Shown here piece after piece: positions 16,200 through 55,604 of a DNA stretch of 64,000 bases. Under the pieces are notes generated by a model that searched no databases, had not been told where the DNA came from, and was given only the letters and a program-made list of their open reading frames with translations. Source of the DNA: a virus; IMG/VR virus record IMGVR_UViG_3300045988_114464, positions 1-64,000 of that record, one strand, 5' to 3'. The translations under genes and the position numbers were made by a program. Numbering within the stretch: position 1 is the stretch's first letter; each line of letters opens with the position of its first letter.

Positions 16200-16274
16200 T
16201 GGCACAAGACTTAGGACTTTAACCTAAACGAACAGTTTTGGAGACTGTCATGCTAACAATTACATCAGTCTTGC
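16200..16274 (-). tRNA. tRNA-Trp (CCA)
   Basis: Hand-folded cloverleaf: acceptor GCAAGAC/GTCTTGT, anticodon stem ACAGT/ACTGT, loop CTCCAAA, T arm TTAGG-TTAAAGT-CCTAA, encoded CCA. Confidence 0.75.
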
Positions 16275-16277
16275 GTA

Positions 16278-16352
16278 TGGAGCGCTATGGCGTAATCGAA
16301 ACGCCATCTTCAGTTTGGAAAACTGAGGTTCTTACCATTAAACTAATAGCGC
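16278..16352 (-). tRNA. tRNA-Gly (UCC)
   Basis: Acceptor GCGCTAT/ATAGCGC, anticodon stem TCAGT/ACTGA, loop TTTCCAA, T arm GGCGT-TTCGATT-ACGCC, encoded CCA. Confidence 0.8.
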
Positions 16353-16468
16353 AAATCGCCCCGCGACCAAAAGGTACGTCATGCGCGCTTGACTTGTTTT
16401 CCACTGGGAATCGCAGTACAGTCATGGGCTAAACCGCAATAAGCGTGAACTTAACAAACGGGGAACAC

Positions 16469-16544
16469 TGGCAGGGATGGTGTGATTCGGACACACGAAT
16501 GTCGGCTTCAAAGACCGATGCCTTGACCGCTTGGCTACACCCCT
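16469..16544 (-). tRNA. tRNA-Gln (UUG)
   Basis: Acceptor AGGGGTG/CATCCCT, anticodon stem TCGGT/GCCGA, loop CTTTGAA, T arm GTGTG-TCCGAAT-CACAC, encoded CCA. Confidence 0.75.
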
Positions 16545-16701
16545 ATATTTCTCCTACGCTGACGAGACGCAGGAGAGAAATTAAATTGTATGCCGACACG
16601 TTTGAGCGTGTCTATTAAATTGTTTGTCTGCCGTACCAGACGGTGTGTGTGAGTGGAGTTTTTGCTCACGGACAATAAAATTTACCTTGTACGGAAGGCA
16701 T

Positions 16702-16777
16702 TGGTCTACCATCGCAGGCTCGAACTGCGGACTTCTTGATTAAAAGTCAAGTGCTCTACCAACTGAGCTAATGGTAG
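16702..16777 (-). tRNA. tRNA-Lys (UUU)
   Basis: Acceptor CTACCAT/ATGGTAG, D arm GCTC-AGTTGGTA-GAGC, anticodon stem CTTGA/TCAAG, loop CTTTTAA, T arm CGCAG-TTCGAGC-CTGCG, encoded CCA. Confidence 0.85.
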
Positions 16778-16945
16778 ATTTGATTGGGGCATATGCCCCA
16801 TCACTTATCGCAGATTGTAACGGTCTACACCGCGCATATTCTTCTGCATCTCAAGGTTTGCTTCATACAGACCACGGAAGAAATGCTTGATATTGCTCTT
16901 AACGCCCATTGGTTTCACTTCCTTTCTGATTACTTTAGTATTATA

Positions 16946-17575
16946 TCACATAACAACTAAGTTGTCAAGTGCTTTTTTAACTTTATTTTTCATTTCTTCT
17001 CGCTCTTTCTTAGAGTCATATCTCATGCGACAATAAGGGCGAGTGCCTTCTCTGTAATGTTTCTGCAAAATTCGTATTTGCTTATTTACCATTTCTTTAG
17101 AAACATCTAACTTATCAGCCACTTCTTGACACGTTTTACATTCTGTTAGCTTTGCGTATATGACTTTAAGCATAGCAGTCGAAGCATACTCGATAAACCA
17201 ATCAGCCCAATCTTTACCAGCAACATATTCTTCATTCTTTGCGCCACTGTCAATAACAGCTTCAAGCGGTACATCTTCATTATAGACGGTTTTAACTTCA
17301 GTGTTCAATGAAATAACACGACTATCATTGCGCTTCTTTGCTAACTGAGTGCGCTTTGCCTTTTTTACTTCATTGTGCATACAGTAATAAGCAAATGTAC
17401 TAAAGCGGTTACTGCCATCATAAGCCATACCAGCCTTGCACAAACCAATAGCACAAATGTCATACCATGTGTTGAAGTCAAGTTTATACTTTGTTAAGAA
17501 GCCGTAGATTAAATCGTGATTATCTTCGACTAATTTCTTCTGCTCAGTATTTAATTTGATATTTGGCTTGCTCAT
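16946..17575 (-). CDS. sigma-70 family sigma factor
   Basis: Region 2-like DLIYGFL...DICAIGLCKAGMAYDGSNRFSTFAYYCMHNEVKK and a region 4-like HTH TCQEVADKLDVSKEMVNKQIRILQK. Confidence 0.7.
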   Translation of the reverse strand: MSKPNIKLNTEQKKLVEDNHDLIYGFLTKYKLDFNTWYDICAIGLCKAGMAYDGSNRFSTFAYYCMHNEVKKAKRTQLAKKRNDSRVISLNTEVKTVYNEDVPLEAVIDSGAKNEEYVAGKDWADWFIEYASTAMLKVIYAKLTECKTCQEVADKLDVSKEMVNKQIRILQKHYREGTRPYCRMRYDSKKEREEMKNKVKKALDNLVVM

Positions 17576-17774
17576 AACAGTTGTTTCCTTTAGTTTGAAA
17601 TAATGGAGCGAATGACGGGTACTGCCCCCGCGTCCTCAGTTTGGGAAACTGAAATTCTACTATTGAACTACATCCGCATATGATAACAGGGAATGAGTTA
17701 GAAAGAAGGTATGTCAAAAGAAGGAGAAAAAATCTCATTCCCTGCTATTTATTTATATTTGTTATGCTTAGAAG

Positions 17775-46767: not shown

Positions 46768-47697
46768 ATGATTATGAATCCTGAACTCGTAAAGTTTGCG
46801 GCTGATTCTCAGACTGGTTTCTATGATGCTGCTATGCGCTATTTCTGCGATGGCGAAAAGACCGCAGATAACAAGGAACTAATGCACAAGGCTTTTATGG
46901 CTGAAGTAGAGCACAAGTCTCACTTTGCTCGTGAAGGTCTTGACGTTAATGCTTGGATTGGCAACCCGTCTGTTTCTTGGGCGGCAATGAGTATCGTTGA
47001 CTCCACCATCCGTGCAATTATTCCTGTGACCATTCTACCACACTTTAATCTATTTGCTGATTTCCGCACCCAAGGCTTTGGTGATATTACCAAGTTTACT
47101 ATTCAGCCACGTTCTTTCTATGTTGTTTCTAAGGGCGGTCGTGCGGAACGTACTTCTTTCCGTCAGAGAAAGTTCAATTCTGATGTTACTCTGACCCCAG
47201 AAGAGCACATTATTACTATCTTTGAGAAGATGTATAATGTACTGTCTGGTCGTGTAAACATTGCTGACTTCATGGCATGGGTAATGCTGTCTGTTCAGAC
47301 CGAGATGTACACTGACGCTCTGATTGCTCTGAACGGCGGTCTTGCTACCATTCCAAACGGTTCTCTGAATGTAAACGGCGCATTTGACATGAAAACTCTT
47401 GTTAAGATGTGCGAAACTGTTCAGTACCGTAACGGTGGCGTAAAGCCGATTATTGCTGGCTCTGCAACCGCTCTAATGAACGTACTACCAGATTCTACTT
47501 CTGGCTATCGTATGAACGTAGATGGTGAAGGCAATGGTTCTATCGAACTACTCCGCAATATTATGGGTTACACCGTAATGAAGCTGGATAATGCTGTTAC
47601 TAAGGCTGGTGAACTGATTCTGCCTGATGATAAGATTTATGTTATTAGCCCATCTCAGGATAAGCTACTGAAGGGTGACTTATGCCCTGCTTGTTAA
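46768..47697 (+). CDS. major capsid protein, exon 1 (the ORF reads on into the intron)
   Basis: 309-aa ORF in the capsid position. Its last few codons (about 47677-47697) are probably intronic. Confidence 0.55.
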   Translation: MIMNPELVKFAADSQTGFYDAAMRYFCDGEKTADNKELMHKAFMAEVEHKSHFAREGLDVNAWIGNPSVSWAAMSIVDSTIRAIIPVTILPHFNLFADFRTQGFGDITKFTIQPRSFYVVSKGGRAERTSFRQRKFNSDVTLTPEEHIITIFEKMYNVLSGRVNIADFMAWVMLSVQTEMYTDALIALNGGLATIPNGSLNVNGAFDMKTLVKMCETVQYRNGGVKPIIAGSATALMNVLPDSTSGYRMNVDGEGNGSIELLRNIMGYTVMKLDNAVTKAGELILPDDKIYVISPSQDKLLKGDLCPAC

Positions 47698-48997
47698 GTG
47701 ATTAGCAAGTATTTTGCGTTAAATGCTTTGAATCCCTAAAGCCTACAAAACTCAAACAGTAATTGGAAACGATAAGCTGTGTAGTTACGAAAGTAGAAAA
47801 AATTTGTAGGATATTCATAAGGTTAAATCCTAAGTGAATGTAAATGGGTCTTTAGCAAGGAATGTCCTAAGTATAATATTGACTATTATTGCAAAGTATG
47901 CTATAATATATTATATATGGAAAACCTTCAACGATTATCTCCTTATGGGAGAGTAGGCTACAAGCTAATGGTAGTCGAAAAATGCAACTCTTATACATTA
48001 TAAAAATTTTTAAGAAAGGAGGGAAAAATATGTTAGTCCCCAATCAATATATTACTGTTAATTGGCATCCAAGAAATAAAGTACATTTGGAAAGTAAAGG
48101 ATATATTTACACACACATTGGTCTACCTGTTCAAGTTAAAGTTGAAGATATGATGGCAGGTTCAAAATGCAGAGTAAAAGTACAATGCGATTATTGTGGA
48201 AAAATATATACCAAGGTATATAAAGATTATTTTGCTCAAAGACAAAACGGAAAAGATTGTTGCGCTAAATGTGCTTCTAAAAAGCGAGGAGAAACCAATC
48301 AAGAATTGTATGGCGGTAATGCTCCTGCTTGTTCTCCTAAAGTTGTAGAGAAAATGCAAAAATCTTGTTTAGATAAATATGGCGTTAAAGTGCCTTCTAA
48401 ATCGTCAAAGGTAAAGGCAAAAATGAGAGAAGTTAATATGGAACGATACGGTTTCCCTGTTCCATGCCAAAATCCAAGTGTACGCGCTAAATTTATTGAA
48501 ACAAATCAAAAGCGACATGGTGGTAATGGAAGTCAATGCAATCCAGAAGTTCGTAAGAAAACCATGCAATCTTTTATAAAACATGGTACGATTTGTTCTT
48601 CTGAACCAGAACGCGAAATGGTTAAAAAATTACAAAAGCTATATGGTTCTCAGAATTGCTTTCCACAATATTTGCTTGATAAAATTGTGTTTGATTGTTT
48701 GGTTATTGTTAATGGTGTCAAAATTGATGTAGAATTTGATGGAAAATATTGGCACAAAGACAAACACAAAGATATTCGGAGAGATTATTACAGTTTTTCT
48801 CAAGGATATAAAGTATTACGCTTTAGTGGGGATAACGATGCCCCTACTGAAGAGCAAATTCAACAAGGAATAGACTTTTTGGTGACAACCACTCACCGCC
48901 ATTTAATTATTGATGTATAAGATGAAGATATAATCTGGACTCATATGAAAGTATGAGAAGTTTAATTTATAGGGGATTAAACTGGACGGACGTTGCG
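47680..48997 (+). mobile_element. group I-like intron 1 carrying a homing endonuclease gene (boundaries approximate)
   Basis: Splits the capsid ORF. Its noncoding blocks 47717-47790, 47843-47876 and 47917-47982 are homologous to blocks in intron 2. Internal promoter TTGACT 47879-47884 / TATAAT 47902-47907. Confidence 0.65.
48030..48920 (+). CDS. intron-encoded homing endonuclease (Vsr/DUF559-like C-terminal nuclease)
   Basis: AAAGGAGGG SD. C-terminal KIDVEFDGKYWHKDKHKDIRRDYYSFSQGYKVLRFSG. Repeated modules of about 30 aa of the type YG..P.QNP.V..K. Paralog of 53588..54505. Confidence 0.7.
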   Translation: MLVPNQYITVNWHPRNKVHLESKGYIYTHIGLPVQVKVEDMMAGSKCRVKVQCDYCGKIYTKVYKDYFAQRQNGKDCCAKCASKKRGETNQELYGGNAPACSPKVVEKMQKSCLDKYGVKVPSKSSKVKAKMREVNMERYGFPVPCQNPSVRAKFIETNQKRHGGNGSQCNPEVRKKTMQSFIKHGTICSSEPEREMVKKLQKLYGSQNCFPQYLLDKIVFDCLVIVNGVKIDVEFDGKYWHKDKHKDIRRDYYSFSQGYKVLRFSGDNDAPTEEQIQQGIDFLVTTTHRHLIIDV

Positions 48998-49156
48998 AAT
49001 CCGTTTGAACACACTCGTGTAATGACTACAACCCTATCTAATTCTAACCAGTTCTACGATAATGCAGACCTAACTACTAACTTTACTCAGCGAGTAGAAT
49101 GGGGCTTCATGTTCGCAACTTCTGCATACGCAGGTGTCTACACTATCAACCAGTAA
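48953..49156 (+). CDS. major capsid protein, exon 2 (the true exon probably starts near 48998)
   Basis: This frame is open from 48926. The C-terminal ...NPFEHTRVMTTTLSNSNQFYDNADLTTNFTQRVEWGFMFATSAYAGVYTINQ has no SD or start context of its own. Confidence 0.5.
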   Translation: MRSLIYRGLNWTDVANPFEHTRVMTTTLSNSNQFYDNADLTTNFTQRVEWGFMFATSAYAGVYTINQ

Positions 49157-53198: not shown

Positions 53199-53417
53199 AT
53201 GGCTTCTGCTAATATTTTCACCGCTGGCCCTGCTCGTGCGCTGTTTTTCTACGGTCAGGACTTGATTGGTGTTGGTACTACTCTAAGTGATACCACTTTC
53301 GATTCTTCTATCACCGCCGAGGAAGTACGCGGTGGTCAGGGCAACCTGCTCTACGGTCAATACTTCCATGATTCTTCACTGACCGTTTCTATTACCGATG
53401 TAACTTGCATTGCTTAA
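53199..53417 (+). CDS. major tail (tube) protein candidate, exon 1
   Basis: 72-aa ORF ending just inside noncoding sequence homologous to intron 1. The protein continues in 54720..55604. Confidence 0.5.
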   Translation: MASANIFTAGPARALFFYGQDLIGVGTTLSDTTFDSSITAEEVRGGQGNLLYGQYFHDSSLTVSITDVTCIA

Positions 53418-54717
53418 TTGGTGACAATTAAGTACCGAGTGTTTAATGCTTTGAAAATGCCCTAAAGCCCTTTTACCCAAACAGTAGTTGGAAACAACAA
53501 GCTGAGTGGTTATAAAAAGTAAAGGGATTGATTTTATTGACTTTTAAGTATTATTATGATATAATATAAGAAAGGGGATGATAAAATTTGCTGTTAAAAG
53601 ATAATTTAGTTGAAATGAAATGGCATCCAACTAATAGAGTTAAATATGCAACTCGTGGTTATAAATTTACCGCTTTTGGCGAAAAGTTTTATGCAAAAGC
53701 GAGTGATGTACTTGAGTTAAGTAGTGGTGCTAAAATTCCTGTGCAATGCGATTATTGTGGCAAAATTTATTATCCTACTTCTCGTAATTATGAGAAATCA
53801 CAGTTACGAAAAGAGAAAGATTGTTGTGTTGCTTGTAAAGGTAAAGAAATTCGCGCAACCGTACAAAAGAAATATGGTGTTAATAATGTAGTAGAGTTGG
53901 ATGAAGTACGCATGAAGATGAAAGAAACTTGTCTTTCAAAATATGGTACTTCTTCTCCGCTTGAGAATAAAGAAATTTTTCAGAAAACACAAGATAGTTT
54001 TAATTCTCATTATGGAACAGAAAACGGTATTAAAGATTTGCGTTCTGTTCCAGAAATTGCTACAAGAATTGAGAATACTAATATTTCTAAGTATGGTGGC
54101 AAAGCACCAATATGCTCTTCTAAAATTAGGAACAAAATCAACCAAACAATGTATGAAAACGGAACTTGCAAAACTTCAGAAAAACAACTGTTATTGAATC
54201 AAATGGTAATTGATTTATACGGTAATTCTGAGTTGAATTATCCTTGCGATAAAGTGTCTTTGGATTGCATGACGATTGTCAATGGAATTAAAATTGACAT
54301 TGAATATGATGGTTGGTATTGGCATAAAGACAAACAAGAAGAAGATAAGCGCAGAGATTTCTTTGTAGAGTCTAAAGGTTATAAAGTTATTCGCTTTATA
54401 GCTTATGAAAACAGACTCCCTACCGAAGAAGAATTACGCAACGCAATTCATAAAATTACAACAACAAGTAGAAAATTTACTAAAGTCAAATTAAATAAAA
54501 TCTAATGGGTAGTTTAGCAGGGAAAGTCCTAAGTCTATAAAGATATGGAAAACCCCCAACGACTATCTCTTGGCGAGAGAGTAAGCTACAAGCTAATGGT
54601 AGCTGAAAAATCCTCCCCTCTTTGTAGAGGTGAACAAATAGTCTGAACATCTATCGAAAAGATAGAGCAGTTCTTTAAGAACGGCATAGGGAGTTGCGTC
54701 CTTATGTGAACATATTG
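53406..54717 (+). mobile_element. group I-like intron 2 carrying a homing endonuclease gene (boundaries approximate)
   Basis: Blocks 53441-53515, 54506-54540 and 54545-54612 are homologous to intron 1. Internal promoter TTGACT 53537-53542 / TATAAT 53560-53565. The endonuclease gene sits between block i and block ii, unlike in intron 1. Confidence 0.65.
53588..54505 (+). CDS. intron-encoded homing endonuclease (paralog of 48030..48920)
   Basis: MLLKDNLVEMKWHPTNRVKY parallels MLVPNQYITVNWHPRNKVHL. C-terminal KIDIEYDGWYWHKDKQEEDKRRDFFVESKGYKVIRF. Confidence 0.7.
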   Translation: MLLKDNLVEMKWHPTNRVKYATRGYKFTAFGEKFYAKASDVLELSSGAKIPVQCDYCGKIYYPTSRNYEKSQLRKEKDCCVACKGKEIRATVQKKYGVNNVVELDEVRMKMKETCLSKYGTSSPLENKEIFQKTQDSFNSHYGTENGIKDLRSVPEIATRIENTNISKYGGKAPICSSKIRNKINQTMYENGTCKTSEKQLLLNQMVIDLYGNSELNYPCDKVSLDCMTIVNGIKIDIEYDGWYWHKDKQEEDKRRDFFVESKGYKVIRFIAYENRLPTEEELRNAIHKITTTSRKFTKVKLNKI

Positions 54718-54719
54718 CA

Positions 54720-55604
54720 ATGTTTAATCTTCAGTACGTTGCCGCAAACCTTGGTGTAAACCTTGAGCAAGGCGGTCTATCCGTAACTGAAGAAGAACTA
54801 ACTGTTGGCGCAGTTGGTGGCGCAGTAACACTAACTAACAAGCCAATCGCATTCTCTGGTTCTTATATCGGCTGGTATAAGAAGCCTTCTGACGCTGATT
54901 GGACTATTGGTACTATTGACGCTGACCAGAAGAAGATGAATATTGCTGGTGCAAAGGAAAATGAGCACTATTGTGTTAAGTATTTCTATCAGAATGAGAA
55001 CGCTAAGTCTATTACTATTAAGGCTCAGTTCGTTCCAAAGGTGCTACACCTTGTTCTGATTAACGACCTATTCTCTGGTTCTACCGCTGATGTAGCGGCT
55101 TCTACTTCTAAGTATGGTCGTCTAATTACCGATATTCCTCAGTTCCAACTCGATGGCGCACAAAATCTGGCATGGGCGGCAGCTTCTGCGGCAACCGTTT
55201 CTCTGTCTGGTAAGGCACTGGCATATTCTGATACCGAGTCTTGCGAAGTAGACCCAGTATACGGTACTATGACTCAAGAGATTTTTGGCGCTAAGTGGCA
55301 GGATGATGTTGTAGCACTCGCTTGCGAGAACGCTGAGATTGACCTTGCTGAATCTGGTACTGAAACTCTGATTGTTCGTGCGGTATTCGGTGGCGCAATT
55401 GCTTCTCAGCGCAAGGAAAACTCCAACTTTACCTTTGCTATTGTAGATGCCCCTGCTTCTACTGCAACTGGTACTACTGTTGGTGCTAATACTGGTATTG
55501 TAACTGCTGGTACTACTGCTGGCACTGCTGTAATTTCTATTACACTTACCAATTATCCGAACGTACCACCCGCATACGCTACCGTAACCGTAACTGTTGG
55601 TTAA
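54720..55604 (+). CDS. major tail (tube) protein candidate, exon 2, with C-terminal Ig-like domain
   Basis: This frame is open from 54690. (M)FNLQYVAANLG... and the C-terminal FTFAIVDAPASTATGTTVGANTGIVTAGTTAGTAVISITLTN...ATVTVTV look Big_2-like. Confidence 0.5.
   Translation: MFNLQYVAANLGVNLEQGGLSVTEEELTVGAVGGAVTLTNKPIAFSGSYIGWYKKPSDADWTIGTIDADQKKMNIAGAKENEHYCVKYFYQNENAKSITIKAQFVPKVLHLVLINDLFSGSTADVAASTSKYGRLITDIPQFQLDGAQNLAWAAASAATVSLSGKALAYSDTESCEVDPVYGTMTQEIFGAKWQDDVVALACENAEIDLAESGTETLIVRAVFGGAIASQRKENSNFTFAIVDAPASTATGTTVGANTGIVTAGTTAGTAVISITLTNYPNVPPAYATVTVTVG

What the first reader, a model, noticed from the sequence alone, without database searches (positions are those of the whole stretch)
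53199..55604. Tail tube gene split by a second, homologous intron whose endonuclease gene sits in a different loop
Exon 1 (72 codons) and exon 2 (from about 54699-54723) flank 1.3 kb. The intron core blocks match intron 1: 53441-53515 matches 47717-47790, 54506-54540 matches 47843-47876, and 54545-54612 matches 47917-47982. In this intron the paralogous endonuclease gene lies between block i and block ii. In intron 1 it lies after block iii. Each endonuclease gene has its own perfect TTGACT-17-TATAAT promoter inside the intron. This arrangement suggests either that the endonuclease genes invaded related introns independently or that the gene moved within an intron. It also shows the intron spreading to a second structural gene in the same genome.
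Basis: partly seen in the sequence, partly recalled or inferred. Interest (0 to 1): 0.72.

Follow-up and report, generated by a model that had tools for sequence, protein, structure and literature searches.

The report
Mobile intron splitting phage tail gene
The major tail (tube) gene of this gut phage is interrupted by a 1.3-kb self-splicing-type group I intron that carries its own homing endonuclease gene. This is a familiar kind of selfish element, with one oddity in where its family appears to be cut out of the RNA.

Summary
Window 53401-54717 is a group I intron (IA-type, with P7.1/P7.2) inserted exactly between codons 67 and 69 of the major tail protein gene. Near-identical phages carry the same gene uninterrupted.

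Its core is homologous to the intron in the capsid gene (47676-49017). Its endonuclease gene and promoter sit in a peripheral hairpin of the P5 extension. In the capsid intron, and in most of about 13 relatives I recovered, the endonuclease gene is in the P8 loop and its promoter in the P6a loop. A third placement, after P9.2, also exists.

The two window introns are mosaic members of a larger family, not copies of each other. Related phages carry either intron alone.

The kind is well known. Examples are Twort orf142 (a tail tube gene with three introns), phage K, cluster J mycobacteriophages and I-Bth0305I.

One point is unexplained. In every family member whose junction can be judged, the inserted DNA begins with the U that pairs with the guide G and ends in G. 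The 5' exon therefore ends in G (G-C pair), not the canonical U of a U·G wobble. This needs RNA data.

The parts
53199..53400 (+). Major tail (tube) protein exon 1: 67 codons plus the first base of codon 68
   Evidence: Intron-less alleles L003, L005 and others read ...ATT ACT GAT GCA ATG TTT. PMBT24 major tail protein aligns across the junction.
53401..54717 (+). Group I intron 2 (1317 nt), in the register that ends in G
   Evidence: Exact insertion relative to intron-less alleles. Partial RF00028 match at 54469-54667, 26.4 bits, E 3e-4. Family covariation.
53396..53412 (+). P1: exon CGAUG plus intron U53401, paired with the guide GCAUUG (53407-53412)
   Evidence: Read from the sequence. The guide covaries with exon sequence across 13 insertion types.
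53413..53432 (+). P2 hairpin with a GUGA loop
   Evidence: 8 of 8 pairs with double-sided changes across the family (helix 1).
53437..53526 (+).
   Evidence: The Rfam alignment of an ORF-less relative assigns the same helices.
53530..53544 (+). P5 arm B, 5' strand. It pairs with 54482-54502. The loop holds the promoter and the endonuclease gene.
   Evidence: Read from the sequence (GAUUUUAUUGACUUU / AAAGUCAAAUUAAAUAAAAUC). Relatives have a short hairpin here (helix 11).
53537..53565 (+). Sigma-70-like promoter TTGACT-17-TATAAT with a TG extension
   Evidence: This is a consensus match only.
53588..54505 (+). Homing endonuclease gene 2 (305 aa, TTG start). Vsr-like, EDxHD-type.
   Evidence: Pfam DUF7487 and DUF559. 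PHROG 12131, homing endonuclease. Profile hit to 3r3p (I-Bth0305I), E 8.5e-5.
54482..54502 (+). P5 arm B, 3' strand. It overlaps the last codons of the endonuclease gene.
   Evidence: Read from the sequence.
54507..54706 (+).
54707..54717 (+). 3' tail UGAACAUAUUG ending in the terminal G (omega-G, 54717)
   Evidence: GAA.A is invariant in the family.
54718..55604 (+). Major tail protein exon 2
46768..47675 (+). Major capsid protein exon 1
   Evidence: Intron-less alleles L021 and L022 read ...AAG GGT GTA ATG ACT. PMBT24 capsid protein alignment.
47676..49017 (+). Group I intron 1. An equally possible register is 47678-49019.
47879..47907 (+). Promoter in the P6a loop of intron 1
   Evidence: The same placement occurs in L007, L009, L014, L017, L025 and L041a.
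48030..48920 (+). Homing endonuclease gene 1 (296 aa), in the P8 loop
   Evidence: P8 is CUUAUACA/UGUAUAAG, read from the sequence.
49018..49156 (+). Major capsid protein exon 2

Best explanation
Window 53401-54717 is a mobile group I intron of the IA type (it has P7.1 and P7.2) inserted in the major tail (tube) protein gene.

Inferred mechanism: the late transcript folds into the P1-P9 ribozyme and the intron is removed, giving ...SITD-A-MFNLQY.... This is the same protein that intron-less relatives encode.

The intron carries a cassette of a sigma-70-type promoter, a ribosome-binding site and a 305-aa Vsr-like (EDxHD-type) homing endonuclease gene. The cassette sits in the loop of a peripheral hairpin (arm B) of the P5 extension.

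Inferred: the endonuclease cuts intron-less alleles during mixed infection, and repair copies the intron in.

The element belongs to a mosaic family common in human-gut phages and related to introns of Enterococcus and Staphylococcus Herelleviridae. Within the family the endonuclease gene occupies at least three positions: P5 arm B, the P8 loop, and a hairpin after P9.2. The capsid-gene intron of the same window is a P8-loop member.
For: Split gene:
- Enterocloster phage homologs match across the junction in one piece.
- Nine IMG/VR alleles, up to 99% identical, are uninterrupted and differ from the window by an exact 1317-nt insertion.

Mobility:
- Contig 116681 has intron 2 but not intron 1.
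- Contigs 099236 and 102473 have intron 1 but not intron 2.
- The window has both.
- L025 and L043 are natural endonuclease-deletion derivatives of L049.

Fold:
- On 12 family cores, 93.6% of cells are paired against at most 43% when partners are slid.
- 46 of 73 pairs change on both sides.
- 0 of 500 shuffles reach the observed value. This includes the P3/P7 pseudoknot.
- RF00028 matches: 26 bits in the window; 44.9 bits, E 4e-10, full length, in an ORF-less family member; 93.7 bits in a related intron.

Endonuclease:
- DUF559, PHROG homing endonuclease, profile hit to I-Bth0305I.
- E239, D241, H246 and D253 are invariant.

Endonuclease positions.
Against: - No RNA evidence of splicing is available.
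- The window copies score below the Rfam gathering threshold. This is expected with a 1-kb ORF inside.
- The junction register that restores the protein puts G, not U, at the end of the 5' exon. This is atypical for group I introns.
- Promoter and endonuclease activity are inferred from sequence only.
Confidence: 0.9

Rival explanations
1. Origin A. A promoter-plus-endonuclease cassette invaded arm B of an ORF-less, promoter-less core independently of the P8-loop endonuclease genes.
For: In intron 2 and L024 the promoter and gene are contiguous, and the P6a loop lacks the promoter insertion that the other members carry. ORF-less cores exist (L031, L038). Endonuclease 2 is no closer to endonuclease 1 (35%) than to the post-P9.2 gene of L041a (37%). 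The I-Bth0305I gene also interrupts P5 of its intron (PMC3239194).
Against: All the endonucleases are one family with the same domain order. A donor with a free-standing cassette was not found.
Confidence: 0.45
2. Origin B. The endonuclease gene moved from the P8 loop to arm B within one intron lineage, or recombination between family members reshuffled cores and genes.
For: The family is mosaic. Intron 1 and L017 are 99% identical in P3-P5 but 69% in P4'-P3', and their endonucleases are 33% identical. L027 has its promoter next to the gene inside L8, an intermediate cassette form.
Against: No intermediate was found with remnants of a gene in both loops. P8 of intron 2 is a clean 5-bp hairpin.
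Confidence: 0.4
3. The block similarity is an intergenic repeat, and the 72-aa and 294-aa ORFs are separate genes with no splicing.
For: Gene callers list them separately. The 72-aa ORF is on 402 contigs.
Against: Homologs are contiguous across the junction. The last 5 codons of the 72-aa ORF are absent from every intron-less allele. The fold is supported by covariation.
Confidence: 0.02

Closest known systems
Staphylococcus phage Twort orf142 introns and Silviavirus/Kayvirus introns (IA2, Herelleviridae)
   Same: These are group I introns in a tail tube gene. Twort orf142, with three introns, is the tail tube gene (PMC11878797). Silviavirus CIFT_MFB_MRSA28 has four annotated Intron_gpI features there. 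The cores are 70-77% identical to intron 2 over P6-P9 or P3-P8. They share P7.1/P7.2, a P2 with a GNRA-type loop, and the P9.2-GAA tail.
   Different: The host proteins are a myovirus tube versus a siphovirus major tail protein, with no detectable sequence relation. The K/Twort endonucleases are HNH by my own recollection; this was not tested here. K lys-I1 and Silviavirus introns 1 and 2 have the canonical exonic wobble U.
Cluster J mycobacteriophage capsid and tail introns (Pope 2013, PMC3706429)
   Same: Related group I introns sit in a capsid gene and a tail gene of one phage group. One has a homing endonuclease gene and one has none. They show presence/absence polymorphism among relatives, and splicing was shown by RT-PCR.
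   Different: The intron lineage and endonuclease family differ. There the two introns are in different phages. Here both are in one genome and both carry an endonuclease gene.
I-Bth0305I intron in recA of Bacillus phage 0305phi8-36 (EDxHD family, PDB 3R3P)
   Same: The homing endonuclease has a Vsr-like catalytic domain, and the ORF interrupts P5 of a phage group I intron. Profile match E 8.5e-5.
   Different: The N-terminal region here is a Cys4 motif plus DUF7487 repeats, rather than the two NUMOD2 motifs described for I-Bth0305I. Identity is low.
T4 td, nrdB and nrdD (sunY) introns
   Same: One genome holds several related IA2 introns, each with an endonuclease ORF looped out of a peripheral element and with internal promoters (own knowledge; reviewed in PMC2988022, listed).
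   Different: The T4 ORFs are GIY-YIG or HNH and sit in nucleotide-metabolism genes.

Membership tests
Group I intron (Rfam RF00028) | Conserved core P3-P9, including the P3/P7 pseudoknot | tested here: met
   Covariation on 12 family cores: P3 has 4 of 7 pairs with double-sided changes. P7 occurs as GACUA/UAGUC, GAUUA/UAAUC and GAAUA/UAUUC. 93.6% of cells are paired.
Group I intron (Rfam RF00028) | Score at or above the Rfam gathering threshold (50 bits) | tested here: not met
   The window copies score 26.4 and 25.9 bits as partial matches, because a 0.9-kb ORF splits the model. An ORF-less family member scores 44.9 bits, E 4e-10. A related intron scores 93.7 bits.
Group I intron (Rfam RF00028) | The intron ends in G (omega-G) | tested here: met
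   One register gives a terminal G in all 13 insertion types.
Group I intron (Rfam RF00028) | The last base of the 5' exon is U, paired with G of the guide (U·G wobble) | tested here: not met
   In the register that ends in G and restores the reading frame, the last exon base is G paired with C. The U·G pair is at intron position +1. This is a DNA-level inference. The RNA ends are not known.
Group I intron (Rfam RF00028) | Self-splicing with guanosine | not testable with these tools
   No RNA data. The metagenome scan found only an intron-less DNA allele.
Subgroup IA (IA2-like) | Extra helices P7.1 and P7.2 between P7 and P3' | tested here: met
   P7.1 has 5 of 5 pairs with double-sided changes (helix 15). 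The P7.2 hairpin is present in all members.
EDxHD (Vsr-like) homing endonucleases | Vsr-like catalytic domain | tested here: met
   Pfam DUF559, E 6e-6 and 1e-6, above the cut-off. The profile of 9 family endonucleases hits 3r3p, E 8.5e-5.
EDxHD (Vsr-like) homing endonucleases | Conserved E, D, H and D catalytic residues | tested here: met
   E239, D241, H246 and D253 are invariant in alignment A1 (IDvEyDGxyWHkD...D). The motif definition is from PMC3239194.
EDxHD (Vsr-like) homing endonucleases | N-terminal NUMOD-type DNA-binding modules | not tested
   Pfam reports DUF7487 repeats, and the alignment shows invariant Cys54, Cys57, Cys80 and Cys83. No NUMOD model was run.
EDxHD (Vsr-like) homing endonucleases | Cleaves the intron-less allele near the insertion site | not testable with these tools
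   Only indirect evidence: intron presence/absence among phages that are at least 98% identical.

The most novel reading that the evidence does not exclude
This whole intron family is excised one nucleotide upstream of the conserved U·G wobble. The family comprises the gut-phage members plus the tail-tube intron of cultured Enterococcus phages such as EF1TV and phiEF24C and a Kayvirus tail-lysin intron. On this reading the 5' exon ends in a G-C pair and the wobble U is the first intron base. That would be a family-wide departure from the near-universal group I rule that the wobble U is the last exon base. Relatives with the same P1 design (phage K lys-I1, Silviavirus tail-tube introns) obey the rule.
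Probability: 0.5. Interest if true: 0.7.

Novelty: new member of a known kind. Interest (0 to 1): 0.4.

Why it matters
As given, the finding is a clean and correct annotation. Two essential virion genes of an uncultured gut phage must be read across introns. Gene callers currently split them into fragments, and the 72-aa fragment is on record from 402 contigs.

The wider family shows homing endonuclease genes changing position within one ribozyme scaffold. It also makes the major tail gene an intron hot spot, with at least six insertion sites. This parallels Twort orf142 in an unrelated tail protein.

The only part that could interest RNA specialists is the apparent G|U 5' junction. If real, it bears on how P1 docking fixes the cleavage site, and it can be tested in cultured Enterococcus phages.

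Tried and rejected
- The Rfam gathering scan of the window found no intron. Only the permissive scans found partial matches.
- For five, and later thirteen, insertion types I enumerated every in-frame pairing of a U-ending 5' exon with a G-ending intron. Only the L009/L007 type allows a fully canonical pair, and that pair changes a conserved Gly to Val. Canonical 5' and canonical 3' sites together add one base and run into stop codons.
- A metagenome scan for GATGYAATG..., intended to catch a ligated transcript with U in place of C, returned one intron-less DNA allele.
- An exact look-up of the ligated tail and capsid proteins, and of the Ala-to-Val variant, found none in the collection.
- Literature searches for a described non-U 5' splice site gave nothing usable.
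- NCBIfam gave no hit for the endonucleases.
- Searching the window with the endonucleases and the core blocks found no third copy.

Full report
**Context.** The region 44-57 kb of the window is a phage virion module. It is syntenic with Enterocloster phages PMBT24 and CB457P1: scaffold-like protein, a 183-aa protein, capsid protein, five small proteins, then the major tail protein, with the tape measure further downstream. No phage in GenBank is close at the DNA level.

**The gene is split.**
- A tblastn search with exon 1 joined to exon 2 hits six Enterocloster phages in one uninterrupted piece across the junction.
- The PMBT24 major tail protein reads ...ITLTD|AMFRLEY.... The window has ...SITD at 53388-53399 and AMFNLQY at 54717-54737.
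- In IMG/VR, nine alleles of the gene (58-99% identical) are uninterrupted and read ...ATT ACT GAT GCA ATG TTT....
- The window reads ...ACC GAT G[TAACTTGC...ACATATTG]CA ATG TTT....
- The insertion is therefore exact. It is 1317 nt at 53401-54717 if it ends in G.
- The capsid gene behaves the same way. Intron-less alleles read AAG GGT GTA ATG ACT. The window has a 1342-nt insertion at 47676-49017, or 47678-49019 in an equally possible register.

**The insertion is a group I intron.**
- Permissive Rfam scans give partial RF00028 matches. One is at 54469-54667 (P6 to P9, 26.4 bits, E 3e-4). The other is at 48822-48957. The gathering scan finds nothing, as expected when a 0.9-kb ORF splits the model.
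- I searched IMG/VR for the P4-P5 motif and recovered 27 loci of the same intron family.
- One locus lacks an ORF inside its core and matches RF00028 end to end at 44.9 bits, E 4e-10. A related intron in the same contig scores 93.7 bits.
- I deleted the endonuclease genes from 12 representative family members, aligned them and wrote down the helices P2 to P9.2, with P7 as a pseudoknot.
- On that alignment, 93.6% of cells form standard pairs, against 36-43% when partners are slid by 1-3 columns.
- 46 of 73 pairs show changes on both sides. No shuffle out of 500 reaches the observed covariation.
- P3 reads UUGCGUU/AAUGCAA, GAGUGUU/AAUCCUC, UUGGGUU/AAUCCAA, CUGUGUU/AAUACAG, CCGUGUU/AAUACGG and CAACGUU/AAUGUUG.
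- P7.1 and P7.2 between P7 and P3' place the family in subgroup IA.

**Homology of the two window introns.** By segment, the two cores are 64% identical in P3-P5, 81% in P4'-P3' and 58% in J8/7-P9.2. Each has closer relatives elsewhere.
- Intron 2 is closest to L024, which is at the same site in a diverged phage (83-89%).
- Intron 1 is 99% identical to L017 in P3-P5 but only 69% in the middle segment. It is 89-90% identical to L027 in the P3-P5 and middle segments.
- The family is therefore mosaic, and the two window introns are not copies of one another.
- Near-identical phages carry intron 1 only (contigs 099236, 102473), intron 2 only (116681), or a different tail-gene intron (122291).

**Where the endonuclease genes sit.** In intron 2 the P5 helix (CCC/GGG) carries two arms. 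Arm A is conserved. Arm B is a short hairpin in most relatives (47815-47840 in intron 1).
- In intron 2, arm B is a long stem (53530-53544 with 54482-54502). Its loop holds the promoter (53537-53565), a ribosome-binding site and the 305-aa ORF. The 3' strand of the stem is the end of the coding sequence.
- P6a and P8 of intron 2 are small hairpins.
- In intron 1 and in L007, L009, L014, L017, L018, L027, L045 and L047 the ORF is in the P8 loop. Its stop codon lies in the 3' strand of P8.
- In intron 1, L007, L009, L014 and L017 the promoter is an insertion in the P6a loop. L027 instead has its promoter beside the gene inside L8.
- In L041a and L049 the ORF lies in a hairpin after P9.2, while the P6a-loop promoter is kept.
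- L025 and L043 are L049 with the ORF cleanly deleted.

**The endonucleases.**
- Both window proteins match Pfam DUF7487 and DUF559 and PHROG 12131, 'homing endonuclease'.
- A profile of nine family members hits the catalytic domain of I-Bth0305I (3r3p) at E 8.5e-5.
- E239, D241, H246 and D253 are invariant. This fits the EDxHD motif defined by Taylor et al. 2011. Those authors also report that the I-Bth0305I ORF interrupts P5.
- Endonucleases at the same target site are 59-69% identical. All other pairs are 26-41% identical, irrespective of loop position. The data do not decide between independent cassette invasion and relocation.

**What is known already.**
- The nearest described introns by blastn are in Enterococcus and Staphylococcus Herelleviridae.
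- In Enterococcus phage EF1TV the match lies in the tail tube gene.
- A Silviavirus has four annotated group I introns in its tail tube gene.
- Twort orf142, the classic three-intron gene, encodes the tail tube protein.
- Cluster J mycobacteriophages have related introns in capsid and tail genes, with RT-PCR proof of splicing.
- The finding is a new member of a known kind.

**An unexplained point.** I compared intron-containing and intron-less alleles, or used reading frame and protein homology where no intron-less allele was at hand. This covered 13 insertion types: intron 1, intron 2, L024, L009, L007, L017, L018, L027, L031, L025/L049, L041a, EF1TV and the SapYZU04 tail-lysin intron.
- In every case the inserted DNA begins with a U that pairs with the G at the 5' end of the guide sequence, and it ends in G.
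- The exon base before it is always G, paired with C.
- Examples: CCGAUG|UAACUUGCAUUG...AUAUUG|CAAUG (intron 2); AAGGG|UGACUUAUGCCCU...CACUCG|UGUAAUG (intron 1); CGAUGG|UAAAAU...GCCA...AUUAGG|CGCAC (L017); ACGCAG|UAAGAU...GCUGUG...AACUG|UUCACA (EF1TV).
- If the wobble U were exonic, as the group I rule says, and the terminal G were used, the mRNA would carry one extra base and run into stop codons.
- If the wobble U were exonic and the 3' cut were one base later, the terminal base would be U, C or G, and conserved residues would change: Ala to Val in TDAMF, Arg to Cys where homologs have K/Q/R, and Gly to Val.
- The base after the terminal G matches the intron-less allele in 7 of 8 comparisons, so it is exon DNA.
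- As controls, the same reasoning gives canonical junctions for phage K lys-I1 (ACGGGU|AAAU...AAUCG|GAUGGA) and for Silviavirus tail-tube introns 1 and 2.
- I conclude that the DNA insertion is [U...G]. If the RNA is cut at the same places, this family has G-C rather than U·G at the 5' splice site. That step is inference, and only RNA end mapping can settle it.

**Further observations on the family.**
- The major tail gene of these phages carries family introns at six or more sites.
- The 72-aa exon-1-plus-intron ORF is on record from 402 contigs, so intron 2 is common in human-gut data.

**Verdict.** It is a new member of a known kind with moderate interest. The splice register is the one lead that could turn out to be unusual.

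Noticed in passing
L031 (IMG/VR contig 3300045988_139345), segment around the motif hit; the sequence printed: Two family introns in the tail gene appear to be separated by a 10-nt mini-exon (...UUUGAAGAAUCUCG|AUAUCAGAGG|UAAAUAAUCGCCUU...). The upstream sequence has the P9.2-GUUGCG-GAA tail of another intron.
   Followed up: partly
L025 and L043 versus L049: This is a natural clean deletion of the endonuclease ORF. The first 13 nt of the gene are fused to its last 8 nt (ATGTTGTTATCAA|TGGTATAA). The intron core and the P6a-loop promoter are left intact.
   Followed up: partly
L041: 5085-5478 and 10028-10354: One contig carries two introns. The first is a family member near the 5' end of the tail gene (after MQKFLAG), with its endonuclease gene after P9.2. 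The second scores 93.7 bits on Rfam and lies in another gene. It is followed by a short ORF with an ...IEYDGEQHF... Vsr-like motif.
   Followed up: partly
L053 (Enterococcus phage EF1TV, MK268686: 55435-56250): The annotated 'putative structural protein' (130 aa) is exon 1 of the tail tube gene. An ORF-less intron of about 385 nt follows, then an 11-codon exon 2 (FTYLTSAKVK*). Both are unannotated in the record. The intron-less EfV12-phi1 encodes 140 aa in one piece.
   Followed up: yes
window 47671-47688 and L025 5' junction: Intron 1 (capsid gene) and the L025/L049 tail-gene intron share the same exon-guide pairing (AAGGG|U with GCCCU), although they sit in different genes. Insertion sites covary with the guide across the family. 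This is compatible with site choice or selection through P1 pairing.
   Followed up: partly
window 16203-17677, minus strand: Five tRNA genes form a cluster (Rfam, 49-69 bits).
   Followed up: no
window 53199-53414: The exact 72-aa ORF (exon 1 plus five intron codons) is on record from 402 contigs, and GenBank names it only as a hypothetical protein (DAH10697.1). The exact 294-aa downstream ORF is on record from just 2 contigs.
   Followed up: partly
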